In this document: positions 5,859 through 51,204 of the stretch, in pieces
Numbering within the stretch: the first letter of the stretch is position 1
How the letters are laid out: the number at the start of each line of letters is the position of its first letter
The notes under the pieces: model-generated
The model's input: only the letters and a program-made list of their open reading frames with translations
What the model was told of the DNA's origin: nothing
Database searches by the model: none
Translations under genes and position numbers: made by a program
Assembly (NCBI GenBank): GCA_964442455.1
Contig: CAYTZB010000005.1
Location: forward strand, 5,152-69,151
DNA from: an uncultured Gammaproteobacteria bacterium
Lineage (GTDB): Bacteria > Patescibacteriota > Microgenomatia > UBA8517 > JACQJR01
DNA: 64,000 bases
Reading direction: 5' to 3'

Positions 5859-6834
5859 TAATTAATTGGAGCGTCTTCTCAACAAGAGCTTTTTGGGAAT
5901 TCCATAAGAGATTGTCTATAGGTTCAACAAGTATTTCTCTAAAACCCCCTTTATTAACAACAATAGGAATGCACCCTGCTGCCATACTTTCCACAACTGT
6001 AATCCCGAAATGCTCAACCTTTTCTGGCTCTTTTTCCTCATCAACACCAAATCCTGATGCTGACCAAAAAATTTTTGCTCTTGCGTAAAGCGATTTCAAA
6101 TGATTGAAATCTAGGCTTTCAATAATCTCTATTGGGTAACCTCTGGCTTCAAACCTCAAACTTTTAGCAAATTCTTCTCCTCCAATATCGCTTCCTCCTA
6201 CAAGAATAAGCTTCCATCCTTGCAAACCCCCATCAACCATTGTTTTAAATACCGACACTAACACATCTTGCCGTTTTGCTTGAAGGAGCTGGGAAAATCT
6301 TCCAACAGAAAGAATAACATCAGCTTTAGTTTTATGACCCGCCTTGCCGTCGGGCAGGTTTATATCATCGAACTGACCAACATCAACTGGTGGATATATA
6401 ACAACACTATCTACCCCATATTCTTTATCAATAAATTTCTTTGTAAACTTTGAATTACATACAACTTCATAAATTCTTCTTAACTTCAATCGATTAAAAA
6501 GTGATTTTCCTCTCACATTATGAAATGGAACTTGAAAGTGCAGAATATTTTTCTTGGCATATAAGCGTGGAATACTTCCATCTGATAACCAAAAACACAA
6601 ATCATATTCTCTTCCCTTATGAATGCTAGAGACAACTCTCACGCCAGATAAATCTAGCCCCAATCTATCTTCCAGTTTTTTTAATATTCCAGCATCATCC
6701 CATCCTACATCCACCTCCCACCCACTCTTTTTCAAAACGTGAGCAACTGTCATCACATACCGTTCCCCACCACCAAGAGTATCCAAATATGGATTGTAAA
6801 TTGCAGCCCTCATAGCCTTCTTTGCATTTCCCAC
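5755..6834 (-). CDS. Glycosyltransferase family 1 (GT4-type, GT-B fold)
   Basis: 359 aa. C-terminal 'EHFGITVVESMAAGCIPIV' is the classic GT1 E-x7-E region. Confidence 0.75.
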   Translation of the reverse strand: MGNAKKAMRAAIYNPYLDTLGGGERYVMTVAHVLKKSGWEVDVGWDDAGILKKLEDRLGLDLSGVRVVSSIHKGREYDLCFWLSDGSIPRLYAKKNILHFQVPFHNVRGKSLFNRLKLRRIYEVVCNSKFTKKFIDKEYGVDSVVIYPPVDVGQFDDINLPDGKAGHKTKADVILSVGRFSQLLQAKRQDVLVSVFKTMVDGGLQGWKLILVGGSDIGGEEFAKSLRFEARGYPIEIIESLDFNHLKSLYARAKIFWSASGFGVDEEKEPEKVEHFGITVVESMAAGCIPIVVNKGGFREILVEPIDNLLWNSQKALVEKTLQLINDEKRRKILSHIVQQISKQFSQDRFEYEISKITA

Positions 6835-7748
6835 AACTTAGCATACGTTATAAATCTGCTCCATCCTTGATAAATTGAAAAGACAACACCAGGTACTCCA
6901 TCCAAAAATCCTAGTTTTAAAACTAACCGATCAAAAATTTCGCCAATGACCGGACGGAAAAATCTCCACCATGTCATTTTCGGATGACCACTCTCAAGTA
7001 AAAGCCTTGCTTCAATTTCCGACCAGTTGTTCGTTTTCTTAACCATATCTGATAAATTATCTTCTTTTAAATGAATGAAAGGATTCTTAAGATATCCAAT
7101 TTCCCCGTTGATTTTTGGTTGTTCGTGTAGTTCACCTTCCCATTTAATTAGTGCGTCCTTTCTCATAAGTCGTATAACATAATCCGGCCACCAGCCTCCA
7201 TGGTGCAATTCTTTCCCAAAAACAAAATTTCGTCTTGGAATAGCATAAGCTACTATACTAGAGTCGGCGGGTGACACGGGTGGAAGGCCTGCCTGCGCAG
7301 GCAGGGGTCCCGATCCCACTTCGCTCTTCGAGCTTCGAGGGACAAGCACGCTGGTACTGGCGGGCCTGCCAGCCGAAGCTTTAGCGTAGGCGGGAGGGAG
7401 AACCCGGGGCAGGACCCGCCGACCACCCGGGGTAGGACCCCGAGCAATCATTTCCATAATTTCCTCTCTTAACTCTGGAGAAACTCGCTCGTCAGGGTCT
7501 ATATAAAAAAGCCATTCACCTTTTGCTACCTCTTTTCCTTGATTCCTCCAGGTATCAAAACTCCCCGGTTTTTGTCTTATCACACGAGCTTTATACTTCT
7601 TCCCAATCTCAAGTGTTTTATCGGTTGAGCCGCCATCCAACAGAATAATTTCTCCTATCCCTTCCACCAGATGGCGGACAGATTCTAAACATTCAGGTAA
7701 TTTTTCAGCAGCATTTTTTGTAAGAACGACAATTGATATCTGTATCAT
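6810..7748 (-). CDS. GT2-family glycosyltransferase carrying an in-frame GC-rich palindromic insertion
   Basis: N-terminus 'ISIVVLTKNAAEKLPECLESV...ILLDGGSTDKT' and 'DPDE' are the GT2 DxD region. A roughly 57-aa Pro/Ser/Arg/Gly-rich segment (RGPTPGGRRV...PVSPADSS) interrupts the conserved core. Confidence 0.75.
   Translation of the reverse strand: MIQISIVVLTKNAAEKLPECLESVRHLVEGIGEIILLDGGSTDKTLEIGKKYKARVIRQKPGSFDTWRNQGKEVAKGEWLFYIDPDERVSPELREEIMEMIARGPTPGGRRVLPRVLPPAYAKASAGRPASTSVLVPRSSKSEVGSGPLPAQAGLPPVSPADSSIVAYAIPRRNFVFGKELHHGGWWPDYVIRLMRKDALIKWEGELHEQPKINGEIGYLKNPFIHLKEDNLSDMVKKTNNWSEIEARLLLESGHPKMTWWRFFRPVIGEIFDRLVLKLGFLDGVPGVVFSIYQGWSRFITYAKLWEMQRRL
7263..7433. repeat. GC-rich palindromic insertion element (171 bp, divisible by 3) with 10-bp perfect terminal inverted repeats GTCGGCGGGT...ACCCGCCGAC, inserted in-frame in the GT2 gene
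   Basis: The segment is sharply GC-rich within an AT-rich gene. It contains nested palindromes (CCTGCCTGCGCAGGCAGG; CACGGGTGG/CCACCCGG) and a direct repeat CTTCGAG x2. Its termini match the element at 15888-16002. Confidence 0.55.
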
Positions 7749-8698
7749 GGATTAAAACTTCCTTTCCCAAAGTTACCAAAATAATAATCTAACACTCCTC
7801 GCCGCTGCCATGACCGCCCATTGAAAAGAAGACGCGCCGACTCACGAAGTAGCGCAAATCGAGAACGAAGTGGTGCAAAGCGGCTCCCAAAGAGAAGTCG
7901 GTTGCGAGTGATGTAATAATCATTCAACTCACTCCCAATCGCAGAACTTTGCGCAACTTTGTGCCAGAGATAAGCAGATGGAGCATATAAAGTTTTAAAA
8001 CCTGTCATTTTTGCCCTTTGACAAAAATCAGCGTCTTCCCAATATAAAAAATAAGACGGGTCAAGTAGCCCAATTTTTTTAAACACTTCTTTCTTGACGA
8101 ACATACACGCACCGGTCGCAAAATCAGTCTCTGTGGTACTATCGTATTGGCCTTTATCCACTTCATCCACCCCTCGATGGCTTGCCAAAACATTATCCCA
8201 GTTAATCGCTCCCCCCGCATACCATATAACCTTTCCCAACTCTCCCTTCTTATACCTATCTTTGTGGAACTCAAAACCTTTGTAAAAATAAATTTTAGGG
8301 GAAATTATGCCAGCATGCGGGTTATTCTCTGCTGTTTTAATCAATTGAACTATTAAATTCTTATCTGTAATCGTATCGTTATTAAGAAGTACCACGTAAT
8401 CGGCATAGTCTTTTAATGCCGCTTTTATGCCCATATTATTCCCTTCCGAAAACCCTAGGTTATTTTTGTTTTCAATTAATTGAAATTTCGTGGAAAATTT
8501 TGCAAGTGTACGTAAATTTTCAACCGACCCATCAGTTGAACCATTATCAACAACAATAGTTTTGAGTTCTGAGTTTTGCCGTGCGTCGCCAAAGGCTATG
8601 CCGGCGGCGCGAGTTCTGAGTTTTGCAATGCTATCCAAGCATTGCAACGTATCTTCTTTCCCATTCCAATTAAGAATAACAATTGATACTTTTTTCAT
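7745..8698 (-). CDS. GT2-family glycosyltransferase
   Basis: 317 aa. 'VSIVILNWNGKEDTLQCLDSI...IVVDNGSTDGS' is the GT2 motif. It contains a short GC-rich insert (RTRAAGIAFGDARQNSE). Confidence 0.75.
   Translation of the reverse strand: MKKVSIVILNWNGKEDTLQCLDSIAKLRTRAAGIAFGDARQNSELKTIVVDNGSTDGSVENLRTLAKFSTKFQLIENKNNLGFSEGNNMGIKAALKDYADYVVLLNNDTITDKNLIVQLIKTAENNPHAGIISPKIYFYKGFEFHKDRYKKGELGKVIWYAGGAINWDNVLASHRGVDEVDKGQYDSTTETDFATGACMFVKKEVFKKIGLLDPSYFLYWEDADFCQRAKMTGFKTLYAPSAYLWHKVAQSSAIGSELNDYYITRNRLLFGSRFAPLRSRFALLRESARLLFNGRSWQRRGVLDYYFGNFGKGSFNP
8564..8626. repeat. 31-bp GC-rich insert flanked by a perfect 16-bp direct repeat (GAGTTCTGAGTTTTGC) inside the GT2 CDS
   Basis: 8564-8579 and 8611-8626 are identical. 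Between them lies cgtgcgtcgccaaaggctatgccggcggcgc, with imperfect palindromic ends GCGTCGCC/GGCGGCGC. It sits between the conserved CLDSI and IVVDNGS motifs. Confidence 0.5.
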
Positions 8699-8797
8699 TT
8701 TGAGCCCTGCGAAAAAACAAGCTCCGCTTATTTTGAGCCCTGCGAAAAAACAAGCTCCGCTTATTTTGAGCCCTGCGAAAAAACAAGCTCCGCTTAT
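8699..8797. repeat. Perfect 33-bp tandem repeat x3 (TTTGAGCCCTGCGAAAAAACAAGCTCCGCTTAT), followed by a hairpin CCGCTTA-tcgggt-TAAGCGG
   Basis: Three identical copies at 8699-8731, 8732-8764 and 8765-8797. The array starts immediately 5' of the ATG of GT2 gene 7745..8698 and contains the stop codon of 8794..9687. Confidence 0.9.
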
Positions 8798-11566: not shown

Positions 11567-13066
11567 TTAACTCTTTCTGAAGGTGGCATATACATTTTTT
11601 AAATCTCGCAAAACTTGCTCGCCGACAATAACATAAAGTAGTAGAAGATAAGAAGCTATTCCTGACAAAACTAGAATAATTATTCCGAATAAATTCAGTG
11701 GGGTAATATTACCAACCAGGAATACAAAAATACCCATTCCTAAACTTGCAAGAACGGGTTTGCCTACACTTTCCAGAAAATTAAATCTCACAAATCGTGT
11801 AGCCCACACTATTGCAAAAATAGAGCTTGTTCCAACAATTGCAAATCCCAAAGCAGCTCCGTTAATGTGGTAAAGAGCGGCCAGCGCTGGTACGAGGAGC
11901 CATGTAAGCGTAGTCCACATAATCATAAGTCTAAAGGTAATTGTAATTTTGCCAATTGCCGCTAATACATTTGTAAGAGGAGTTGTTACGGCTGCCCACG
12001 CACTATTTATAGTAATAAGACCAAGTGCGAGCAATGCCGGCTGCCACTTCTCATAGCGAGGAATTACCTCTGTTAGTGGCCCCGCAAGAAGTACTAACCC
12101 GATAAGTGAGGGGAATACGAGAGCGCTTACGAAAAAAATAGAACGCGAAACCGCATGGGACAACTCCTTTTTATCATCCTGAAGACGCGAAAATGCAGGG
12201 AAAGTGACTTTTATCACCTGGTCCATAAAAAAACGTAGCGGGGCCTGTGCCCACTTTTGCGCCCAGCCCAAAAGTCCGACTCCCGCCGGCCCAAGAATCC
12301 CACCCAAAACCATAGTCATACCATCATCTTTTGCAACGGCCAAAAACGTATTTGCTTGATAGGGTAGACCAAAGCGCAGTAGTCTCGCAAGGGATTCCTT
12401 TGCGAACGCGAAACCGGGCATCCAAGGCTGGAGCAAGTAAATTATAATAAGACCTGCAAAACCTCGCACGAGTACTGCAATAGTAAAGCTTGTTATTCCT
12501 GCTCCTTGCCACGCAAAAAAAACCGCAACTCCATAAAACAAAAATGTTTCAATTATTTGAGGAATTATTAATTTTTCAAACTTTAACTGTCGTTCAAGAA
12601 GGACAGAAGGGATAGTTTTAAGAGAAGACAAAACAAGCGTTGCCGCAAGCGCCCATAAAAGATAGACAGATTGCTGACTGAACCCATACAACTTTTGAAA
12701 AAGTGGTGTTGCGGCAACGATAATAATCACCAAAAGTACTGTCAAGCCCTGTTGAATAGTAAATGTGGTCCGCAATTCCTCCTCCTTTGCCGCCTCTTTC
12801 TTTTGAATAAGCGCAGCGGCCAAGCCAATATCAGAAAAATATGCAAAAAAATTAATAACCGCTGATACTAAAAAGAATACCCCGTATTGTGTTGGAGTAA
12901 GGAAAATTGTGAGAAGAAACGTGGCAACAAGCGCAACTGTTTGAAGAGCGGCCGTCCTACCAGTGAGTACCACGACTCCCCTCACCGCCCGCTTCTTTAC
13001 CGTCTCAAGAGAAATTTCCTCTGTTGGACTTAAATGCTCACCAGCTTCAATTCCTACCACACTCAA
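11567..13066 (-). CDS. wzx: Wzx-like MOP-superfamily oligosaccharide flippase
   Basis: 499 aa, about 12 TM. The N-terminus '...RGVVVLTGRTAALQTVALVATFLLTIFLTPTQYGVFFLVSAVINFF...AALIQK' is typical of polysaccharide biosynthesis/Wzx proteins. Confidence 0.7.
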   Translation of the reverse strand: MSVVGIEAGEHLSPTEEISLETVKKRAVRGVVVLTGRTAALQTVALVATFLLTIFLTPTQYGVFFLVSAVINFFAYFSDIGLAAALIQKKEAAKEEELRTTFTIQQGLTVLLVIIIVAATPLFQKLYGFSQQSVYLLWALAATLVLSSLKTIPSVLLERQLKFEKLIIPQIIETFLFYGVAVFFAWQGAGITSFTIAVLVRGFAGLIIIYLLQPWMPGFAFAKESLARLLRFGLPYQANTFLAVAKDDGMTMVLGGILGPAGVGLLGWAQKWAQAPLRFFMDQVIKVTFPAFSRLQDDKKELSHAVSRSIFFVSALVFPSLIGLVLLAGPLTEVIPRYEKWQPALLALGLITINSAWAAVTTPLTNVLAAIGKITITFRLMIMWTTLTWLLVPALAALYHINGAALGFAIVGTSSIFAIVWATRFVRFNFLESVGKPVLASLGMGIFVFLVGNITPLNLFGIIILVLSGIASYLLLLYVIVGEQVLRDLKNVYATFRKS

Positions 13067-13069
13067 ATT

Positions 13070-13200
13070 GTAGCATTATTTCGAGCGTCAGCGAAAAACA
13101 AGCTCTGCTTATTTCGAGCAAAGCGAGAAACAAGGTTCTGTGTAAAGCACAGGTTCTTATTTCGAGCTTACGAGAAACAAGGTTCTACGCGAAGCGTAGG
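13070..13200. repeat. Degenerate array of three copies of the same repeat family seen at 8699-8797 (TATTTCGAGC-N-GCGAAAAACAAGCTCTGCTTAT...)
   Basis: Copy 1 'tatttcgagcgtcagcgaaaaacaagctctgcttat' aligns to 'ttttgagccctgcgaaaaaacaagctccgcttat'. Copies 2-3 are more diverged and carry hairpins CTGTG-taaag-CACAG and CTACGC-gaa-GCGTAG. The array lies immediately 5' of the flippase ATG. Confidence 0.7.
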
Positions 13201-13203
13201 TTA

Positions 13204-14685
13204 TCATTGTAGTTTAGCAACCAACGAATAAACTTTATCTTGAGGAAAATCTTTCGGCACACCGCCAAGGTCTTCATAAAACACTCGCAGTGTTTTGTCT
13301 TTGTACAAAATCTGCAGCGCATCTTCACCATTTAACATAAAATGGGCTTGCTTTGAGCTACCTCCCCAATCACCTGAAATTTTTGGATAATTCGGATCAT
13401 TAGCGAAGTAGAGAGCAGCGCCCTTTGGAAGTTCGGGATACTTTACTCTTATATAATTTACTAATTTTTGTGCCGCTCGGCCACGGTTTGCAGCGGGATA
13501 TGTTTTATCAGCAAGTGCGATAGACGCTACAGAAAGCAGGAATAACGACAAAAGAAATGCACCAGCCAAAACATTAGTCATAGCCCCCCACCTTTGCCTT
13601 AACCAGCTATAAGCACTAAATACTACTAACCCCACCGCCCCCCAAAAAGCTGGAAGTGCCGGGGTTAAATAATATGTTTGCTTATGAAGTGGTAAAAGAA
13701 GAACAGGTGAAAGCGCAATAGGAAACCACAGAAGGAGAAACCAAAACCTCCTATCCCGCAATATTCCACTTCGGACGGCAAACACTGCGCCCATAATAAG
13801 AATAGTCACAGCCAGCCCAGAAAAAAAGAAAATTCCCGAAGCATAATCTCCCCAAAATTTCATAAGATTAGGATTAAGTTTGAACCCCGGTTCCACGAAA
13901 TCAATAAACATCTCAGGAATACCAAGGGCCCACGCAGAGTACCAAGACAGCGAGTTAAGAATTGCTTTGGGGGATAATGTCGGCTGATACTGCTGCTCGC
14001 CTGATGAAAAACCAATAAGAAAAAAGTCTAAAAATAAGAAAACAGACAAAACAACAAAAAACGGTATGGTAATCTTTACACCTTTAAGCGCTTTTTGAAC
14101 AAACAACAATCCCACCAAAAGTAATGGTGTTACAACTGCAAGCTCATGTGAACCAAGCGCTAAAATGAACGCAAAAAATGACAATAAATACCATTTCCCA
14201 CCTTGCTCGAGCCATTTCCAAAATGAAAACAATGTCAGAAGCACAAAACTTGTTGCTCCCAACGACTGCACTCCTCCAGCAAGATAGTACAAACTTCCCA
14301 CATTTGCAGCAGTTATTCCAAAGAAAAACGAGATGAAGAGTGCCAACTCCCTTTTTTGAAACAATTTCTGCATCAACAAGTACACAAGGCCTACATTTAA
14401 AAAATGGATGCCAATTGAAAGAATCCTAAACGGAAGATGGTTTAAACCAAATATAAAATAGAAAATATTAAATAATGCTTCTCTGGTGACTGGCCGATAA
14501 AACGCAATTCCCCTCTCGCTAAATGGGTGAAATCCGAATAGATTAAGAAAACCAGCAAGCGTCCCATCGGTTTGGCTTACTTTAAAATGGAAAAAGTCAT
14601 CATGAGAGAAATAAATAGAAGAGACAGAATGATAAAGTACAAAAATCGTTCCTAAAATGCTAAAGAAAATCCAATACAATCGCAC
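13204..14685 (-). CDS. Polytopic membrane protein, putative GT-C glycosyltransferase
   Basis: 493 aa. A first-loop acidic motif 'FSHDDFFHF' follows TM1. Highly hydrophobic. Located in the glycosylation operon. Confidence 0.5.
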   Translation of the reverse strand: MRLYWIFFSILGTIFVLYHSVSSIYFSHDDFFHFKVSQTDGTLAGFLNLFGFHPFSERGIAFYRPVTREALFNIFYFIFGLNHLPFRILSIGIHFLNVGLVYLLMQKLFQKRELALFISFFFGITAANVGSLYYLAGGVQSLGATSFVLLTLFSFWKWLEQGGKWYLLSFFAFILALGSHELAVVTPLLLVGLLFVQKALKGVKITIPFFVVLSVFLFLDFFLIGFSSGEQQYQPTLSPKAILNSLSWYSAWALGIPEMFIDFVEPGFKLNPNLMKFWGDYASGIFFFSGLAVTILIMGAVFAVRSGILRDRRFWFLLLWFPIALSPVLLLPLHKQTYYLTPALPAFWGAVGLVVFSAYSWLRQRWGAMTNVLAGAFLLSLFLLSVASIALADKTYPAANRGRAAQKLVNYIRVKYPELPKGAALYFANDPNYPKISGDWGGSSKQAHFMLNGEDALQILYKDKTLRVFYEDLGGVPKDFPQDKVYSLVAKLQ

Positions 14686-14688
14686 GGC

Positions 14689-16533
14689 CTACATTCTAGC
14701 ACGCGAAAGCCGTTTCCTCCACCATGGAAGAGTAATAAGTATTCCCCAAGAAACAAGAGAAATTAAATTTCCAGCAGTGCGGGGAAAAGTATTATAGAGT
14801 TTGGCGTAAATTTCGTGCTCGCCTTCTTTAACGGTTATGTGCATTCGGCCTAACTCGTCATCATCTCCGGTAATTTCTGTTTCTTCCCCATCAATAAAAA
14901 CTCGCCAATTTGGAAATTGAAAAATATTTATTCTTGCTTTAGCACTTTCGCTTTCAATGGCAATTTTAAATTTCGCCCAGTTTGTTCCTTCACTAGTATC
15001 TGAAATATCACCCTCACCGCTCGTTATTTCGGCCAATGTAGTTCTTGGTCCTTGAGGCGCAATTCTTGATGTTTTTGGGAGATAATCATAAATCCCAGCC
15101 GTTTGTTGAAGCTCCCACGCAGCATTTGCAAATTTCTCTTCATCAGTTAAAGGACCCATGCGATAAGGCTTGAAGTAGTCTTTGTTAAACAACATCACTG
15201 TAACCAAAAGTATGACAACTAAAACTAATGTCCACCTACGCTTTCCATTAAGAAGCGGAACGAGCGCACCTATAACAAATGAAAAAGAAAGGATTACAAT
15301 TGTTAAAAATCGCCAAGGAAACTGAACAATAGAAAGGAATGGTAAGGCAAGCCAAATGGGGGTTGAACGCACATGGGCCATAAAGGCGGTGGCGAAGCCG
15401 AAAGTTAGCATGTAGCTTATGGCCAGTAGCGAATTGGTAGAAATTTTTCCTTTTCTTGCTAATTTAACCAGTACTAACGAACCTATAACTAATGCCAAAA
15501 TCCAGTGTATATGCCCAATTTGGAATGACATTCCGTCATTCTCCCCCCATACCGATGGTCCATAACCCCAAAATCGAGAAAAAAACAATTGATTAATATC
15601 TGCAAAATGGGCAATGTATTCATAATATCCTTGTGTGAGTGTATCGACGTGTACCAATCTCTGCTCGAGTATCACCGGAATGCTAAAAAATGCTGCCAAC
15701 CCAAATGCCCAAATCCCTGAAATTAAAAGTTGGGGGATTCTACTCCACGCATACCCTCTATACAACCAAAGTAAACACCAAATAGCAAACACAGGCGTGA
15801 AGATAAGCACCATAACATTGTGCGACAATAAAAGCGCCGCCCAAGAGAGCGCTAAAATAACAATCCATCTTAAATTTAATAGTAAAAGCGACGGGTGACG
15901 CGAGCGGAGGGAGTCCCACCGAGCGCCCGCAACCCGCCCAGACTGCTCGACTGTTGGCGGGGAGGACGTCGGGTGGGACGAGCGAGCGGCAGGACCCGTC
16001 GCAATAACCTTTTCAGCAATCAACTTAAAACTTGCCCACAAAATTAGCGGAACCCAGGCCAGCGCCCACGCCTCATTCATTGCTCCCCGCACATACACGT
16101 CAACCGCGTGATATGGCGCCCACACATAAAATACACTCGATAGTACCCCGCCAAGCCTGCCCCAAAATTCGCGCGCTAAAATATACATCGTTACTGCGGA
16201 CAACACGAAACTCAAGAAAAAGGTGAGCTTCACCGTCGTAATAAAAGAAACGCCTGTGAGCCTTATCACCTGCCCTACCAAATAGGGAAGTGGCGGATAG
16301 TAGTTAAAGAGTGGAAACCCATACCCATAACCCATATCCGGTACCCAACGGCAGGGGATTTGTAAATCTCGGAAGCACTTCTCCATCTCAAGTTGGCGCA
16401 TCATCTGTAAGTCATCATGCATGTTGAAGTATCCTGATGTGAGTAACACGCGACCCGCAAGAAATCCTAAAAACACTACCAAGATAATGGGCCAAAAATT
16501 AGAGAGACTCGTAATCCTTCGCAAGAATTTCAT
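14689..16533 (-). CDS. GT-C-like membrane protein (PTPS-related/'HDD-loop' family). Paralog of 60082..61755. Carries an in-frame GC-rich insertion.
   Basis: 614 aa. 'YFNMHDDLQMMRQLEMEKCFRDLQIPCRWVPDMGYGYGFPLFNYYPPLPY' parallels 'FTAHDIWHQVARFYHY...FGYPLFFFSYPLPW' of 60082..61755. The insertion encodes TGPAARSSHPTSSPPTVEQSGRVAGARWDSLRSRHP. Confidence 0.55.
   Translation of the reverse strand: MKFLRRITSLSNFWPIILVVFLGFLAGRVLLTSGYFNMHDDLQMMRQLEMEKCFRDLQIPCRWVPDMGYGYGFPLFNYYPPLPYLVGQVIRLTGVSFITTVKLTFFLSFVLSAVTMYILAREFWGRLGGVLSSVFYVWAPYHAVDVYVRGAMNEAWALAWVPLILWASFKLIAEKVIATGPAARSSHPTSSPPTVEQSGRVAGARWDSLRSRHPSLLLLNLRWIVILALSWAALLLSHNVMVLIFTPVFAIWCLLWLYRGYAWSRIPQLLISGIWAFGLAAFFSIPVILEQRLVHVDTLTQGYYEYIAHFADINQLFFSRFWGYGPSVWGENDGMSFQIGHIHWILALVIGSLVLVKLARKGKISTNSLLAISYMLTFGFATAFMAHVRSTPIWLALPFLSIVQFPWRFLTIVILSFSFVIGALVPLLNGKRRWTLVLVVILLVTVMLFNKDYFKPYRMGPLTDEEKFANAAWELQQTAGIYDYLPKTSRIAPQGPRTTLAEITSGEGDISDTSEGTNWAKFKIAIESESAKARINIFQFPNWRVFIDGEETEITGDDDELGRMHITVKEGEHEIYAKLYNTFPRTAGNLISLVSWGILITLPWWRKRLSRARM
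15888..16002. repeat. GC-rich palindromic insertion element with 9-bp TIR GCGACGGGT...ACCCGTCGC. Same family as 7263-7433.
   Basis: Both elements share a left end '(C)GGGTGAC(R)CG' and a right end 'GCAGGACCCG(Y)CG'. The segment is GC-rich inside an AT-rich CDS and the reading frame is maintained. Confidence 0.5.
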
Positions 16534-19362: not shown

Positions 19363-20127
19363 TTAATACTTGCCCTTTAAATCATTCCACCTAATCCTTA
19401 GCATATCGCGAGTTGCATCAAGGGAATCTTTGACTAATTGTACTCGCTCTGTTCCTACATGATGCCATTCAACTGGAACTGAGGCAATTTTAAATCCCTT
19501 CTTACGAGCTATGAAAAGTGTCTCAACATCAAATCCTGCATGAACTGCTGCTCCTACCGTCTTCATTCTCTCCCACCTCTCTTTCATCTTGGGGAAGAGT
19601 GTCTCTCGTGACCGTCGATTAAAAGCTTTAAAACCACATTGCGTGTCTTTAAACGGTAATCCTAAAATAATGTTTCGTAGAATAGCAAATCCCAGTGCTA
19701 CAAGTTTTCTTATTAATGGAGCCCCCGCTCTTCCATGCCGCGAACCAATAACAATGTCATATCCCCGCCGGTCGGCGGGCAGGCCTCCTTCAAAATATGG
19801 GAAAAACTTTTCAACTTCAGAAAGTGGCGTTGCTTGATCCATATCGGTAAAAAGCGCTATCTCACCTTTAGCAGCCAATAAACCTGTCATTACCGCTAAT
19901 GCTTTCCCGCCGTGCTTATTTTCAATAAGCCCCCAATTCTTTTTTCCGTGAATCCACATTTTTACTAATTCCCTTGTATTGTCTGTTGATCCGTCATCAA
20001 CAACCAAAACTTCATACGAATAATCTACATTCTTTAAGTAATTTACAACCTCACTCAAAACCTCGTTTTTAAGATTTTGCTCCTCGTTATATGCCGGAAT
20101 AATAATTGATAAATATATTTTGGCCAT
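19363..20127 (-). CDS. GT2-family glycosyltransferase (DPM1/polyprenol-phosphate glycosyltransferase-like)
   Basis: 254 aa. 'LSIIIPAYNEEQNL...VLVVDDGSTDNT...TDMDQ' is the GT2 motif set. It contains a small GC-rich palindrome at 19764-19789. Confidence 0.75.
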   Translation of the reverse strand: MAKIYLSIIIPAYNEEQNLKNEVLSEVVNYLKNVDYSYEVLVVDDGSTDNTRELVKMWIHGKKNWGLIENKHGGKALAVMTGLLAAKGEIALFTDMDQATPLSEVEKFFPYFEGGLPADRRGYDIVIGSRHGRAGAPLIRKLVALGFAILRNIILGLPFKDTQCGFKAFNRRSRETLFPKMKERWERMKTVGAAVHAGFDVETLFIARKKGFKIASVPVEWHHVGTERVQLVKDSLDATRDMLRIRWNDLKGKY

Positions 20128-20167
20128 TTGGTTACTGGGTTACTGGGTTACTGGGTTACTGGGTAAC
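20128..20167. repeat. 8-bp tandem repeat TGGGTTAC x5 (3 perfect and 2 variant copies)
   Basis: Sequence is ttggttac tgggttac tgggttac tgggttac tgggtaac. It encodes the last 8 codons and the stop of 20140..21744, and lies 1-40 nt upstream of the ATG of GT2 19363..20127. Confidence 0.85.
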
Positions 20168-21744
20168 CTATGTCTCCTCTCTACCGTTATTCCTCCGAAC
20201 TTCACCTCTTTTTCAACTTTACCAATATTTTCCTGCCTCGCCAACCATGCGTCTAGCCTCTCGGGATGAGGTGGATCAACCTCATAGAGGGTATAGAGAA
20301 GTGGCACGTGCTCCTCTTTCGGCACTATCCCATATATTGTTGTTCCCCGCCACAAAAACAAATAATCGTAGGCATATGGGATTACCGGCGGGACATAAGA
20401 GTCAACATTAAAAGGAGTATTACCAGTATCTTCGTAAACCCAGTTAACTGCTTGTTTTTGGTTACCAAAAGCAATAGTATTTTGGCCGTCTACCCCTGAA
20501 GTTATATAACTTTGGATAACTGGAACATTAGTCTGCAAAAAAAGGTATAAAAAAATACCTAAAATAATTTTGCCAAACAAGGTATTGACAATAGTCGTTA
20601 ACAGAACAGAAAACAACAAAATAAAAATTAAATAGTATCCTGTAAAGTAATAGTCATAAATATTACCGTAATTACCCTGGAAGAAAAGCATTCCGGCAAG
20701 TGGGGAGAGGAAAATAATAAGTAATGTAACAAATTTCTGATTTGCAAAAAAAATCTTTCTGTTTATAATCAAAACTCCAAGTGAAATAATTCCAAATATA
20801 AATCCGTAATTTTTATAACTCATAAAAAGCTTTGAATTAAAAACATCAAAGTAAAAAAACAACCTTTGTCTGGCTACTTCCCAAAATGAACCCTTAAAAT
20901 TACCATCTCCAATTAAAAATTTAGCAATTCCAGATCTTAATATTCCATCATGGCGCAGGTCAAAAATTATTTGCGGTAAGAATGGAATAACCAAAGCAAT
21001 AACAAATAAAATCCAAATTTTCAAATCTGGCAAATTTTTCTTTTGCCCGCTTCGCGAGGCGAGCCAGATTGCAAAAACTAAAACAGCAGGAAAATAAAAA
21101 ACTTCAGCTGCTGAACCAAATTGCATTGCAAATCCTAGCATAAGTCCAGTAATAACCCATCCCCACCGTTTGCCTTTTATAATTAAAAATAAAGAAAGTA
21201 CAAGCAACATGCTAATAAGAAGCATTGGTGTTGGATTTGATAGCCAACGTGAGGCATAAACCAACTGAAAAGAAAATGTAGAAATTATAGCAGCAACAAG
21301 CCCTGTTAATCTTCCCGATACCATTACTCCGAGGATATAAATAAGTAAACTTGCAACAACGGTGGTAAAAGACAAGAATACTGATGGCCAAACTGGATTT
21401 CCGTTCCCTAATAAATAAAAAGGGGCAATCAACCAATAGTACCAAGGGCCGCGAAAAATTCCTTCTATTCCAGTTGTCGGCCCGATAAGGAAAAATTTAC
21501 CCTTATGCCACAAATCCCAAATGACAAGCGCATCTCTTCCTTGGTCATAATAAAACCCAAGGAGATTATCAATTCTCCAAACTCTCACCAAAAAAGCACC
21601 TAGAAGAATTATTGACAAAATTAGATATATTCTCGAGTGAGTCAATATCTCAGCTCTCAAACCGCTCAGCCATCGTCTCGTTCTTGTTACACTGTTATCC
21701 TGAAAGGACAAGCTCTGCTTACGTAGGGGTATAAGATTAGCCAT
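20140..21744 (-). CDS. GT-C/ArnT-like membrane glycosyltransferase (paralog of the 1..983 gene)
   Basis: 534 aa. 'YYDQGRDALVIWDLWHKGKFFLIGPTTGIEGIFRGPWYYWLIAPFY' matches the 1..983 product. The N-terminal 35 aa is uncertain: a degenerate copy of the intergenic repeat (aaaggacaagctctgcttacg) overlaps 21700-21725. Confidence 0.55.
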   Translation of the reverse strand: MANLIPLRKQSLSFQDNSVTRTRRWLSGLRAEILTHSRIYLILSIILLGAFLVRVWRIDNLLGFYYDQGRDALVIWDLWHKGKFFLIGPTTGIEGIFRGPWYYWLIAPFYLLGNGNPVWPSVFLSFTTVVASLLIYILGVMVSGRLTGLVAAIISTFSFQLVYASRWLSNPTPMLLISMLLVLSLFLIIKGKRWGWVITGLMLGFAMQFGSAAEVFYFPAVLVFAIWLASRSGQKKNLPDLKIWILFVIALVIPFLPQIIFDLRHDGILRSGIAKFLIGDGNFKGSFWEVARQRLFFYFDVFNSKLFMSYKNYGFIFGIISLGVLIINRKIFFANQKFVTLLIIFLSPLAGMLFFQGNYGNIYDYYFTGYYLIFILLFSVLLTTIVNTLFGKIILGIFLYLFLQTNVPVIQSYITSGVDGQNTIAFGNQKQAVNWVYEDTGNTPFNVDSYVPPVIPYAYDYLFLWRGTTIYGIVPKEEHVPLLYTLYEVDPPHPERLDAWLARQENIGKVEKEVKFGGITVERRHRLPSNPVTQ

Positions 21745-49175: not shown

Positions 49176-49631
49176 TTACACCAGCATAGATTCTGTGTCA
49201 AGCATTATTTTGCGGCTATTTTCATCAAATTGCTCAAAATTAATCCAAATAGTACTTTTTGGAAGAAATCTTCTTATCTTTTCCGCCCATTCAATTGCAA
49301 TAATATTCTCCTGTTTCCCCCAAATCTCACCAAATCCCAAACCTTTAATTTCATGCTCAATATTTTTTTCTAATCGGTAAAGGTCCACATGATAGAAGTG
49401 GGTGATTGGGTTATTGGGTGGCTGGGTAACTAGGTAATGGCGCATAATTATGAACGTTGGTGAGATAACCCTTTTTTTAATTCCCAAACCTTCTGCCAAT
49501 CCTTGGACAAATGTCGTCTTCCCGCTTCCTAACTCTCCCACCAGCGCCAAAATCTCACCGCCTGAAAGTTTCCGTGCAAATCTTTTCGCAACTCTCTCCG
49601 TTTCCTCTGATGAATTTGTAACAATTTCCAT
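49176..49631 (-). CDS. tsaE: tRNA t6A37 biosynthesis ATPase TsaE (YjeE)
   Basis: 151 aa. 'GEILALVGELGSGKTTFVQGL', 'SPTFIIMRHY' and 'HVDLYRL' are TsaE motifs. Confidence 0.8.
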   Translation of the reverse strand: MEIVTNSSEETERVAKRFARKLSGGEILALVGELGSGKTTFVQGLAEGLGIKKRVISPTFIIMRHYLVTQPPNNPITHFYHVDLYRLEKNIEHEIKGLGFGEIWGKQENIIAIEWAEKIRRFLPKSTIWINFEQFDENSRKIMLDTESMLV

Positions 49632-49637
49632 AGTTCT

Positions 49638-49663
49638 GTTTTAATGTTTCGAAACATTAAAAC
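49638..49663. promoter_or_regulatory. Perfect 26-bp palindrome GTTTTAATGTTTC|GAAACATTAAAAC, 7 nt upstream of the tsaE start (copy 1 of 3)
   Basis: Read directly. The core TGTTTCGAAACA is shared with the copies at 50564-50589 and 51087-51110. Confidence 0.6.
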
Positions 49664-49686
49664 AATCATCAGCCCAATGTTTCTTC

Positions 49687-50583
49687 TCACTCTTTATCGG
49701 TATCAGTTAAATTTATAGTTTTTCTCTCTCTCATAAACACAATTGTCGTCCCAACAAGAAAACTTAGTCCTGTAATAATAAAGATTACAGGCAAAACAGG
49801 CAATTCTTTGAACCAACCGCCTATTTTTGTTTCCTCTCCTAGTGTCGGTGAAGGAGAAGAAGTTTGTCCCTCTTGCAAACCAAGTACAATTGGCTCTGAT
49901 GTTGGAGAAGGAGAATTTTTTGGGCTGGCCGTTGGCTTTGGCGTAGGAGTCTTTGTAGGAGTTGGAGTTTTGGTTGGGGTGGGAGTAGGTGTCTTTGTGG
50001 GCGTCGGTGCAAGAGTCTGCGAGGGGGTTGGGGTTGGAGAAGGAGTGGGAGAAGGTGTGGGTGTTTGAGGTATAGAGTTAGTCGATCCTTTAGTTGCAGT
50101 TTGTAAGATTGAGAATATCCCTGTACGATCAGGACTCCTCCCTATCGATATACCGTCACCAGGATTCGAAGTATACTGGTACTGATCAACAATCGCCCCA
50201 GAAGAATCAAAAAGCACCACATGATCCCATTCTCCGGCGCTGTTGGCACTGTTGTTTAAAAAGGAATCCATCTCTATAAAGGGGTATGTCGTGCTCGTAG
50301 TAACAAGATCAGCCAAGACTTTCTTGGTGCTACTCCCAGTATCGGTTGTAAAATCCGTATCGTCATCAAGCCAATAGGACTTTAAGAATTCAGCACTACT
50401 TGATGCATTATAAAACTCAACCCACTCAGGATTCCCATCAACCAAAAACTCATTTATCACCACCTGTGCAAAAGAATTCGTTGGGAAAACCAACCAAAGA
50501 ATAAAAAATAAACCTAAGGAGAAAACTGCTTTCGTTAAACCAAAGATAACTATATTCAATTTTGTTTTAATGTTTCGAAACAT
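49687..50583 (-). CDS. Lamin-tail-domain (LTD) cell-surface protein with a Pro/Thr-rich linker and a C-terminal TM anchor
   Basis: After the signal peptide, '[22 protein letters not shown]...YWLDDD' is an LTD. Then comes '(PTPS/PTKT)n', about 70 aa of low complexity, then '[24 protein letters not shown]'. Confidence 0.6.
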
Positions 50584-50589
50584 CGAAGC
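50564..50589. promoter_or_regulatory. Palindromic operator copy 2 (GTTTTAATGTTTCGAAACATCGAAGC), overlapping the ATG of the LTD gene
   Basis: The left half-site and the 12-bp core are perfect. The right arm diverges (CATCGAAGC vs CATTAAAAC). Confidence 0.55.
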
Positions 50590-50592
50590 AAT

Positions 50593-51060
50593 TTAGAGCT
50601 GTTTAGCTCTCTTCCTTTTGCGAATCTCCTCCTTAAGAGAAACCCATGCGTGGCTCTTTCTCCCAGGAAGCGAGAAAAGTGCTGCCATAGCTTCACCCAC
50701 ATCCAACCAAAACCGCTCCATCCGTTCATCTTGCAAAATGGTGTTCACTACCCGCTTATATCCAGAACCAGTGTTATATTGCAGTGAAATTTTGCCAATT
50801 GTTGATGTACTCACCCTAAGGAGTTTAGAAATCTCTCTCCAATCATACCCTTTAACCAAAAGAAGTGCGATTGCCAAGCGCTTAGAAAGCATTATCTGTT
50901 CAGTTGGAGATAAAAGATCTCGCAAGAAAACTGTAATCTCGCTTTTTATTCTTAAATGGGCAATTGTGCTTAAAAATATCTCAAAGATATGGGTGTAGAC
51001 TTCTTGGGAAATAGGGTACTTTGAAACTTGCGCCATAGATATATATCCATTATTGCACAT
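50593..51060 (-). CDS. TrpR-like YerC/YecD-family DNA-binding protein
   Basis: 155 aa. 'DLLSPTEQIMLSKRLAIALLLVKGYDWREISKLLRVSTSTIGKIS' matches the YerC/YecD (Trp-repressor-like) HTH region. Confidence 0.55.
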   Translation of the reverse strand: MCNNGYISMAQVSKYPISQEVYTHIFEIFLSTIAHLRIKSEITVFLRDLLSPTEQIMLSKRLAIALLLVKGYDWREISKLLRVSTSTIGKISLQYNTGSGYKRVVNTILQDERMERFWLDVGEAMAALFSLPGRKSHAWVSLKEEIRKRKRAKQL

Positions 51061-51086
51061 CTTAGTAATATGACTAGAGAGTGCAT

Positions 51087-51110
51087 GTTTTAATGTTTCG
51101 AAACATCGAA
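51087..51110. promoter_or_regulatory. Palindromic operator copy 3 (GTTTTAATGTTTCGAAACATCGAA), about 27 nt upstream of the YerC-like gene start
   Basis: Same motif as the other two copies. Its position is consistent with autoregulation. Confidence 0.55.
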
Positions 51111-51204
51111 ACCTAAGAAGTCGATGTAAATGTAATTCAATTTAATCGGTCAATGGTGGATTTATAAAAATGGATTAAGGATAACTTCCGAACCGAGTAA
51201 GCCC

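What the first reader, a model, noticed from the sequence alone, without database searches (positions are those of the whole stretch)
15888..16002. Second member of the same TIR element family, in-frame inside a GT-C membrane glycosyltransferase
Inside ORF 14689..16533, a GC-rich segment is bounded by GCGACGGGT / ACCCGTCGC (9-bp perfect TIR). It shares the left-end 'CGGGTGAC(R)CG' and right-end 'GCAGGACCCG(Y)CG' with the 7263-7433 element. It encodes a hydrophilic Ser/Pro/Arg-rich loop (TGPAARSSHPTSSPPTVEQSGRVAGARWDSLRSRHP) between two TM helices of a polytopic protein. Two independent in-frame insertions of related elements, of different length, in two unrelated glycosyltransferase genes, argue for an active or recently active repeat family tolerated in surface-exposed loops.
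Basis: partly seen in the sequence, partly recalled or inferred. Interest (0 to 1): 0.75.

Follow-up and report, generated by a model that had tools for sequence, protein, structure and literature searches.

The report
GC-rich hairpin repeat inside bacterial genes
The flagged segment is one copy of a previously undescribed family of about 100-base GC-rich hairpin repeats that sit in-frame inside many genes, essential ones included, of tiny-genome groundwater bacteria (Microgenomates), much like the palindromic elements known from Rickettsia.

Summary
Window 15888-16002 (minus strand) is a 74% GC, 115-nt imperfect hairpin closed by GCGACGGGT/ACCCGTCGC. It adds 38 codons (residues 178-215) to a GT-C-fold glycosyltransferase, in a predicted disordered loop between two helices.

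It belongs to a real dispersed family. About 45 non-redundant copies turned up in Microgenomates/Blackburnbacteria-type MAGs and metagenomes. A covariance model built from 22 copies also recovers the 7264-7423 element (E = 3e-4), so the two window elements are related.

- The hairpin is supported by covariation: 14 of 31 pairs show compensatory changes, and 0 of 500 shuffles reach that.
- Copies lie in-frame in at least 19 unrelated gene sites, including ArgRS, RF-1, TopA, DnaX, RNase HII, Fpg and a Mur ligase, and also in intergenic spacers.
- They occur in both orientations, with a very strong preference for one reading frame.
- Orthologues 96% identical differ by presence or absence.
- Near-identical copies sit in different genes.

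Best reading: a non-autonomous, RPE/REPIN-like mobile hairpin, translated as a disordered loop. It is not a classical TIR plus target-site-duplication transposon. Its mobilising enzyme is unknown, and a host function is not excluded.

The parts
15888..16002 (-). E2: a full copy of the GC-rich hairpin repeat, 115 nt, read in-frame as residues 178-215 of the host protein
   Evidence: Covariance model hit 15888-16003 at 81 bits, E = 6e-17. RNA fold -61.6 kcal/mol, z = -4.1.
15994..16002 (-). 5' arm of the closing stem, GCGACGGGT. The GGGT core is invariant; the outer 5 nt covary with the 3' arm.
15888..15896 (-). 3' arm of the closing stem, ACCCGTCGC
15988..15997 (-). Conserved 5' motif GGGTCCTGCC. 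It includes the unpaired CCU bulge and is shared exactly with E1.
15904..15917 (-). 3' motif GGGACTCCCTCCGC, which carries the unpaired UCCCUCC side of the asymmetric internal loop. It is invariant in the aligned copies, but both collection scans required it, so its invariance is partly built in.
15933..15961 (-). Variable apical part of the hairpin. It differs in length and sequence between copies.
14689..16533 (-). Host gene: a 614-aa GT-C-fold membrane glycosyltransferase (PTPS_related/YfhO/PMT_2-like). Orthologues without the insert are about 570 aa.
7264..7423 (-). E1: a divergent family member. The outer ~24 nt on each side are homologous to E2 and the interior is different. It is in-frame in the GT2 gene.
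   Evidence: Covariance model 28.3 bits, E = 2.7e-4.
7424..7445 (-). 5' stub GCTCGGGGTCCTACCCCGGGTG: a partial extra copy of the 5' end motif just upstream of E1. Similar stubs occur at many copies elsewhere.
6810..7748 (-). Host gene of E1: a family-2 glycosyltransferase of 312 aa. Orthologues are about 250-257 aa.

Best explanation
E2 is a copy of a non-autonomous, dispersed repeat of about 90-150 nt found in Microgenomates-type CPR bacteria. The repeat is a GC-rich imperfect palindrome defined by its folded shape.

Shape. It has a closing stem around GGGT/ACCC, a CCU bulge, a second stem, an asymmetric internal loop (UC opposite UCCCUCC), a third stem and a variable tip.

Likely history (inferred). 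The element is copied to new places at the DNA level, most likely as a single-stranded hairpin handled in trans by a structure-specific enzyme. An IS200/IS605- or RAYT-type Y1 transposase is the leading guess, because those enzymes need hairpins, leave no target-site duplication and act on one strand. Resident copies can then be overwritten or re-invaded by other copies.

What survives (inferred). Only insertions that keep the host reading frame, land in permissive protein loops or in intergenic spacers, and are read in the frame giving a Gly/Pro/Ser/Thr/Arg-rich flexible peptide.

In this window the element is simply transcribed and translated as a 38-residue disordered loop between two transmembrane helices of a GT-C glycosyltransferase.

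Shown versus inferred.
- Shown: family membership, the hairpin with covariation, dispersal, presence/absence between orthologues, the frame bias, and the disordered-loop prediction.
- Inferred: the mobilising enzyme, the single-stranded DNA intermediate, and that the insert is actually translated.
For: Family and fold.
- 19 true copies came from the genome scan and 33 covariance-model hits from the metagenome loci.
- 31 pairs are 92.5% paired, and 14 show double changes against 9.0 +/- 1.5 in shuffles (0 of 500) and 2-6 when partners are slid.
- Stem changes such as CCCACC/GGTGGG to CCCGCC/GGCGGG, CCCGTC/GACGGG and CCCAGC/GCTGGG alter the peptide (H/R/Q and W/R) but keep the pairing. The constraint is therefore on the nucleic acid.

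Dispersal.
- At least 19 unrelated in-frame sites: ArgRS, Fpg, RNase HII, three TopA sites, a Mur ligase, DnaX, a RecF/SMC-type ATPase, 5'-3' exonuclease, RF-1, a PBP, GT2 and PMT_2.
- About 10 intergenic copies.
- Both orientations occur.

Mobility.
- P0002 (filled) and P0003 (empty) are 96.1% identical outside the loop.
- TopA in L023 and L064 shows reciprocal presence and absence.
- By my own count on the sequences printed, L023 (TopA) and L030 (GT2), from the same MAG, differ at 2 of 86 core positions. L011 (ArgRS) and L024 (GT2), from two related MAGs, differ at 1.
- 106 of 111 host orthologues lack an insert, as do most GT2 orthologues.
- Internally deleted remnants exist: P0131, P0134, P0144.

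Translation as a loop.
- The insert is 38 codons long, in phase with the host ORF, and has no stop codon.
- AlphaFold gives pLDDT below 50 for residues 176-216.

No transposase-like domain was found in 28 window ORFs scanned.
Against: - No target-site duplication and no sequence-conserved TIR beyond GGGT/ACCC.
- No candidate transposase was identified anywhere.
- There is no clean empty site. The sequence next to the insert also differs between the 96%-identical alleles.
- Element arms are more conserved between orthologous copies (80-95% nt) than the flanking coding sequence (62-89%), and arm identity mostly rises with flank identity. Such a pattern is unexpected for dead selfish DNA under AT-biased mutation and could mean host-level function. 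It is partly inflated, because copies were found by exact motifs.
- All 19 sense sites use one 5' reading frame although all three frames are open (my own reading of the consensus). Selection on the peptide is only an assumed cause.
- Neither transcription nor translation of the insert was tested.
Confidence: 0.68

Rival explanations
1. A host-maintained functional hairpin. The repeat would be a cis-acting RNA or DNA module, for example a site for an RNA-binding protein or RNase, a translational pause or mRNA-stability signal, or a chromosome-level oriented motif. The host would keep it, and it may have arisen from a mobile element.
For: - The arms are more conserved than the flanking coding sequence at orthologous sites.
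- Unpaired nucleotides (CCU, UC, UCCCUCC) are invariant beside covarying stems.
- Orientation is biased towards sense: 19 sites against 5 inside genes, and 6 against 3 between co-directional genes.
- High GC persists in an AT-rich genome.
Against: - Most orthologues of each host gene lack it, and close relatives differ by presence or absence.
- Decayed remnants exist.
- Antisense copies are tolerated at the same sites.
- By my own tally of the pair types listed, non-canonical cells show no preference for G-U over A-C (12 against 18 outside one column), so neither strand is favoured.
- 46 of 54 window ORFs are on the minus strand, so a sense bias cannot be told apart from a replication-strand bias.
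- No Rfam family matches.
Confidence: 0.17
2. An intervening sequence removed or skipped after transcription, either an intron-like hairpin excised and religated or a translational bypass. The protein would then lack the 38 residues.
For: The closing stem brings the two junctions together. The fold is stable. GC-rich mobile hairpins that are bypassed during translation are known from yeast mitochondria (my own knowledge, not tested here).
Against: - Every intragenic copy keeps the host frame and has no stop codon, and frames are strongly selected. That would be unnecessary if the segment were removed.
- Antisense copies are equally in-frame.
- There is no match to any intron or ribozyme family.
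- No matched take-off and landing codons are visible at the borders.
Confidence: 0.05
3. Not an element at all: an ordinary lineage-specific loop expansion of the protein, or an assembly chimera with GC-rich foreign reads.
For: The loop is variable in length among orthologues.
Against: - The same about 100-nt sequence recurs in unrelated genes and in intergenic DNA.
- It is found in independent assemblies from NCBI, ENA, JGI and Logan.
- It occurs in both orientations and several frames.
- Base-pair covariation changes the peptide while keeping the pairing.
Confidence: 0.02

Closest known systems
Rickettsia palindromic elements (RPEs; Ogata et al. 2000, 2002, as summarised in PMC10969869)
   Same: Palindromic repeats of about 100-150 bp with no transposase. 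They are dispersed in a reduced genome, often inserted in-frame in unrelated genes including housekeeping ones, encode a conserved peptide, are compatible with protein function, and also occur outside genes. Their means of movement is unknown.
   Different: A different phylum, and the repeats here are strongly GC-rich in an AT-rich genome. I had no RPE sequences to compare, so relatedness was not tested. Here the fold is backed by explicit covariation with fixed bulges. The same site is occupied by different subtypes and in both orientations, and 5' stubs are common.
REPINs / REP sequences mobilised by RAYT (Y1) transposases, and IS200/IS605-derived palindromic elements
   Same: Imperfect long hairpins recognised by shape. 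They have no target-site duplication, persist for long periods at orthologous positions, and act on one strand. (These properties are from my own knowledge of the families.)
   Different: REPs and REPINs are extragenic by definition, whereas most copies here lie inside ORFs. No RAYT or TnpA gene was found or could be searched for.
Classical bacterial MITEs (Correia, ERIC, BOX, QMITE1 of Coxiella; PMC10969869, PMC5896051)
   Same: Small, multi-copy and non-coding for a transposase. They sometimes make in-frame fusions with host ORFs.
   Different: MITEs have sequence-conserved TIRs and target-site duplications inherited from a parent IS. Neither is seen here.
GC clusters of yeast mitochondrial DNA and other organellar hairpin elements (for example the sponge RHEs, PMC2800124)
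   Same: GC-rich palindromic mobile hairpins in AT-rich, compact genomes. Some are tolerated inside coding sequence.
   Different: These are organellar families. No sequence relation was tested, and they are much shorter in most cases.
PARCELs, palindromic amphipathic repeat coding elements (PMC2996958)
   Same: Palindromic DNA repeats that are translated as part of proteins and are spread horizontally.
   Different: PARCELs form tandem arrays in surface proteins and encode similar amphipathic peptides on both strands. Here there are single copies, different peptides on the two strands, and mostly cytoplasmic hosts.

Membership tests
MITE (miniature inverted-repeat transposable element) | Small (<~500 bp), multi-copy, no transposase gene | tested here: met
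   Copies are 86-161 nt. About 45 non-redundant copies were found. There is no room for a gene.
MITE (miniature inverted-repeat transposable element) | Sequence-conserved terminal inverted repeats | tested here: inconclusive
   Only GGGT/ACCC is fixed. The 1-6 nt outside it are complementary but vary from copy to copy.
MITE (miniature inverted-repeat transposable element) | Target-site duplication flanking each copy | tested here: not met
   No consistent direct repeat flanks the 27 copies examined. One subtype has CTCG on both sides, but that is conserved across genomes and so belongs to the element.
MITE (miniature inverted-repeat transposable element) | A parent insertion sequence with the same ends | not tested
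   Collection scans cannot look for ends separated by a gene-sized gap. No transposase domain was found in 28 window ORFs.
Rickettsia palindromic elements (RPE-1 to RPE-10) | Sequence similarity to an RPE family consensus | not tested
The hosts are a different phylum, so membership is not claimed.
Rickettsia palindromic elements (RPE-1 to RPE-10) | Palindromic repeat inserted in-frame in unrelated ORFs, encoding a conserved peptide | tested here: met
   This is a resemblance in behaviour, not membership.
REP / REPIN | Extragenic location | tested here: not met
   About three quarters of the copies lie inside ORFs.
REP / REPIN | A cognate RAYT (Y1 transposase) gene in the genome | not testable with these tools
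Self-splicing introns / ribozymes / any Rfam family | Match to a curated covariance model | tested here: not met
   No hit at gathering score in the window. Only chance-level hits (E >= 0.097) in E-value mode on both elements.
Intein | Splicing domain of about 130 residues or more with conserved junction residues | tested here: not met
   The insert is 38 residues, low-complexity and predicted disordered. The size threshold is from my own knowledge.
GT-C glycosyltransferase (host protein) | Polytopic membrane fold similar to OST/PglB/ArnT/PMT, with an acidic motif in the first outer loop | tested here: met
   Foldseek's top hits are AglB, STT3, PglB, ArnT, AftD and EmbC. Pfam gives PTPS_related. 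An invariant HDD motif sits at residues 39-41.

The most novel reading that the evidence does not exclude
The hairpin is not mere passenger DNA. It would be a host-maintained, strand-specific structured module embedded in coding sequence, which would explain why it is more conserved than the genes around it, has invariant unpaired CCU and UCCCUCC loops, and is biased towards the sense strand. It might act in cis on the mRNA (pausing, processing, stability), or work as an invertible coding cassette that flips in place. The RNase HII and GT-C sites carry it in both orientations in exactly mirrored codon phase, which would switch the encoded loop between two peptides.
Probability: 0.15. Interest if true: 0.85.

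Novelty: new member of a known kind. Interest (0 to 1): 0.6.

Why it matters
In-frame 'protein-coding palindromes' have been treated as a peculiarity of Rickettsia. An independent, well-structured family in the candidate phyla radiation, another lineage with tiny and densely packed genomes, suggests that reduced genomes repeatedly end up hosting selfish hairpins inside essential genes, because little non-coding space is left.

There are practical consequences:
- These inserts inflate and distort protein alignments and domain calls in CPR genomes. Here they split a GT2 Pfam match.
- They can be mistaken for lineage-specific loops.
- They give a ready marker for tracking recombination and population structure in uncultured Microgenomates.

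The unusually strong conservation and frame bias also make the family a tractable case for asking how a mobile hairpin and its host proteins accommodate each other. The covariance model built here could be used to annotate the family.

Tried and rejected
- Rfam at gathering score on the whole window, and in E-value mode on both elements: nothing meaningful.
- tRNA/tmRNA scan of the window: none.
- The same DNA pattern in viral contigs: no hit, so there is no sign of a phage vector.
- A peptide profile of the commonest reading frame against the 5.8-billion-protein set: 1649 word candidates, none at E <= 1.
- The window peptide against 1.84 billion representatives: one weak repetitive hit, P0121, uninformative. 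Short low-complexity queries are simply too weak for this.
- Look-up of the window's own contig through P0001: not on record.
- Ogata 2002 (PMC186582): not held.
- Literature searches for CPR/Patescibacteria combined with palindromic, MITE, intragenic or GC-rich hairpin terms: nothing describing this family.
- Intrinsic-terminator scan: the element is not called.
- Palindromic-target idea. I considered that the variable complementary end bases might be halves of a palindromic target. I rejected it because empty orthologous sites contain no such palindrome.
- Simple in-place inversion to explain L006 against L004. I rejected it as the sole cause because the two copies are different subtypes and only one has the 5' stub.
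- Transposase domains in 28 window ORFs: none.
Full report
**What is at the coordinates.** Window 15888-16002 reads GCGACGGGT...ACCCGTCGC on the plus strand. It is 74% GC in a window that averages 41.8%. It lies in the minus-strand ORF 14689-16533 and is read through in phase, without a stop codon, as ATGPAARSSHPTSSPPTVEQSGRVAGARWDSLRSRHPS, residues 178-215. Either strand folds into a long imperfect hairpin of about -62 kcal/mol, z about -4 against dinucleotide shuffles. The element at 7263-7433 behaves the same way.

A GC-rich 9-bp inverted repeat at this spacing is not unusual by itself. The two segments are nevertheless the two strongest GC islands in the window. They also share an exact 11-mer, CGGGTCCTGCC, and the 14-mer CGYGTCACCCGYCG, which occur nowhere else in the window.

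**The host gene.**
- Pfam gives PTPS_related.
- Homologues come from Microgenomates, Blackburnbacteria and Woesebacteria MAGs, and some are named family 39 glycosyltransferase.
- The AlphaFold model's best PDB matches are AglB, STT3, PglB, ArnT and AftD, so the fold is GT-C.
- Residues 176-216 are predicted as low-confidence coil between helices 152-173 and 214-237.
- By my own reading of the helices and the positive-inside rule, this loop faces the cytoplasm. In alleles without the insert it is a short Lys-rich turn.
- Of 111 close homologues with both anchor motifs, 106 have the short loop and five carry an insert.

**It is a family.** The DNA of the five insert-bearing orthologues shows the same element.
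- L003 (P0002) and L004 (P0025) carry close relatives of E2.
- L005 (P0009) has the same ends with a different interior.
- L006 (P0050) carries the element in the opposite orientation at the same loop.
- L001, a syntenic relative whose GT-C gene is empty, carries an E2-type copy in its GT2 gene, exactly where the window has E1.

A scan of species-representative genomes with GGGTCCTG-N45-75-GGGACTCCCTCCGC gave 24 hits. Nineteen are true copies in about 40-50% GC CPR-like MAGs. The other five are chance hits in GC-rich genomes. A metagenome scan with the 3' half alone gave 36 more loci.

I aligned 22 copies (A3) and built covariance model R1 from them. R1 then recovered:
- all of these copies;
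- further diverged copies;
- 33 copies in the metagenome loci;
- E1, as a full-length match at 28.3 bits, E = 2.7e-4.

E1 shares the outer ~24 nt on each side with E2, with compensated stem changes, and has a different, longer interior. The window holds just these two copies.

**Anatomy, in the sense of the host genes.** From outside to tip the element has:
1. a closing stem, nnnnnGGGT paired with ACCCnnnnn;
2. an unpaired CCU;
3. a second stem, such as CGGGAGC/GCUCCCG;
4. an asymmetric internal loop, UC opposite UCCCUCC;
5. a third stem, GUCCCRYC.../...GRYGGGAC;
6. a variable tip that can grow from about 10 to about 60 nt.

RNAalifold predicts 31 pairs, 14 of them with compensatory double changes. 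On the independent count, 92.5% of cells pair and 14 pairs have double changes, against 9.0 +/- 1.5 in shuffles (0 of 500) and 2-6 when partners are slid. The swaps CCCACC/GGTGGG, CCCGCC/GGCGGG, CCCGTC/GACGGG and CCCAGC/GCTGGG change the encoded residues (His/Arg/Gln and Trp/Arg) while keeping the pairs. The constraint is therefore on the nucleic acid, not the peptide.

The bases outside GGGT/ACCC are complementary but differ from copy to copy. There is no target-site duplication. By my own tally of the pair types listed, non-canonical cells show no excess of G-U over A-C, so the data do not say which strand folds. No Rfam family matches.

**Where copies sit.**

| Class | Count | Details |
|---|---|---|
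| Inside ORFs, sense | 19 distinct gene sites | the GT-C loop, the GT2 loop, ArgRS, Fpg, RNase HII, three separate TopA sites, a Mur ligase, DnaX, a RecF/SMC-type ATPase, 5'-3' exonuclease, an RF-1-family factor, a PBP transpeptidase, two PMT_2 proteins, a large GT2-containing ORF, two unknown proteins |
| Inside ORFs, antisense | 5 sites | the GT-C loop, RNase HII, PriA, a MerR/HTH protein, and one member of a head-to-head pair in L018 |
| Intergenic | about 10 copies | short spacers between co-directional genes (6 sense, 3 antisense), and one copy between divergent genes |

At all 19 sense sites the 5' half is read in the same frame (x-G-P-V/A-x-x-S-S-x-P-T-S-S). The 3' half is read in one of two frames (AGARRDSLRxRHPS or LRALxGTPSAxATR), depending on tip length. 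Only E1 and L005, both divergent subtypes, use another frame (RVLPR). All three sense frames of the consensus are free of stop codons (my reading), so stop avoidance does not explain the bias. If frames were random the chance would be about (1/3)^18. The favoured frames give Gly/Pro/Ser/Thr/Arg-rich peptides, and the avoided ones contain Cys and hydrophobic or poly-Pro runs. Selection for harmless flexible loops is the simplest cause, but it is inferred. Five of the six antisense copies are read in the exact codon mirror of the common sense frame.

**Evidence that it moves or is copied.**
- P0002 (filled) and P0003 (empty) are 96.1% identical outside the loop.
- TopA in L023 and L064 each has an insert where the other has none.
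- By my own count on the sequences, the TopA copy (L023) and the GT2 copy (L030) of one Blackburnbacteria MAG differ at 2 of 86 core positions, variable tip included. The ArgRS copy of that MAG (L011) and the GT2 copy of a close relative (L024) differ at one, and also share about 24 nt upstream and 18 nt downstream.
- At the GT2 site, four relatives carry four different versions. Across 115 orthologues most are empty, about ten hold diverse versions, and three hold short internally deleted remnants such as GPVSRSSRP|HSRHPL.
- Many copies have a partial extra 5' end (GGGTCCTGYC) about 22 nt upstream, E1 included. This suggests re-invasion of, or recombination with, resident copies.

**What does not fit a simple selfish-transposon picture.** There is no target-site duplication, no conserved TIR sequence, and no transposase domain in the 28 window ORFs scanned. 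The nearest empty allele also differs from the filled one for about 30 nt upstream and 12 nt downstream of the element, so a precise junction cannot be demonstrated.

Between orthologous copies the arms are 80-95% identical, where the flanking coding DNA is 62-89%, and arm identity mostly rises with flank identity. That points to co-divergence with the host under a constraint stronger than that on the proteins. It could also reflect repair templated by the opposite arm or conversion between copies. The figure is partly inflated, because copies were found through exact motifs. The sense bias cannot be separated from a replication-strand bias, because 46 of 54 window ORFs share one strand.

**Conclusion.** E2 is a genuine member of a dispersed, structured, GC-rich hairpin repeat family of Microgenomates-type CPR bacteria, and E1 is a divergent member. 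The family behaves like the Rickettsia palindromic elements: in-frame in unrelated genes, essential ones included, with a conserved peptide and no known transposase. In architecture it resembles REPINs, being a long imperfect hairpin recognised by shape and lacking a target-site duplication. I did not test sequence relatedness to either, and it fails two of the defining MITE features.

I found no description of it in the searchable literature. The most likely account is a non-autonomous hairpin element mobilised in trans, filtered by selection to permissive loops and one benign frame, and translated here as a disordered loop. A host function for the hairpin remains a live minority possibility.

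Noticed in passing
window 8697-8797 and 13078-13208: A second, AT-rich repeat family. Three perfect tandem copies of a 33-nt unit (ATTTTGAGCCCTGCGAAAAAACAAGCTCCGCTTAT) fill the spacer between two GT2 genes. A related array of 33+47+47 nt (units starting ATTTCGAGC...GARAAACAAG) fills the spacer between the Polysacc_synt and PMT_2 genes. The syntenic relative L001 has essentially no spacer at either place, so these are lineage-specific insertions.
   Followed up: partly
window 49634-49666, 50560-50592, 51083-51115: Three copies of a 27-29-nt near-perfect palindrome, TGTTTTAATGTTTCGAAACATTAAAACA. Two of them flank a Trp-repressor-like/HTH gene (50593-51060). They look like operator sites.
   Followed up: no
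L003 3333-3408 (protein P0002): A second, smaller GC-rich palindromic in-frame insert (DSDPPAASERSSGGLGEG; GACCCGCCCGCAGCG...GGCGGG) near the C-terminal domain of the same GT-C orthologue. It is absent from the 96%-identical P0003 and from the window protein.
   Followed up: no
proteins P0131, P0134, P0144 (GT2 orthologues): Short in-frame remnants that keep only the first and last codons of the element (for example GPVSRSSRP-HSRHPL). They look like internal deletions of the hairpin.
   Followed up: partly
L018 3022-3215: Two family members lie head-to-head, 0 nt apart by model coordinates. One is sense and one antisense, and both are read in-frame inside a 1014-aa ORF of unknown function.
   Followed up: partly
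L007-L030 record titles (CAYYLO, CAYIKF, CAZLZK assemblies): Several MAGs that carry the repeat and syntenic CPR-type gene clusters are titled 'uncultured Gammaproteobacteria bacterium'. Their proteins match Microgenomates/Blackburnbacteria, so the labels look wrong.
   Followed up: no
window 7745-8698 (minus strand): The neighbouring GT2 protein matches the Glycos_transf_2 profile over residues 5-209 for 167 profile positions. About 40 extra residues therefore sit inside the domain, possibly another old insert. The GC profile shows no island there.
   Followed up: no
window 20120-20175 and 49399-49446: Short tandem runs of the 8-nt unit TGGGTTAC or variants at two distant places (family D3).
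   Followed up: no
window 12638-12719: A 10-bp GC-rich perfect inverted repeat (CGTTGCCGCA) with a 62-nt spacer inside the Polysacc_synt gene. It is not a GC island and is not hit by the family model, so it is probably chance.
   Followed up: partly
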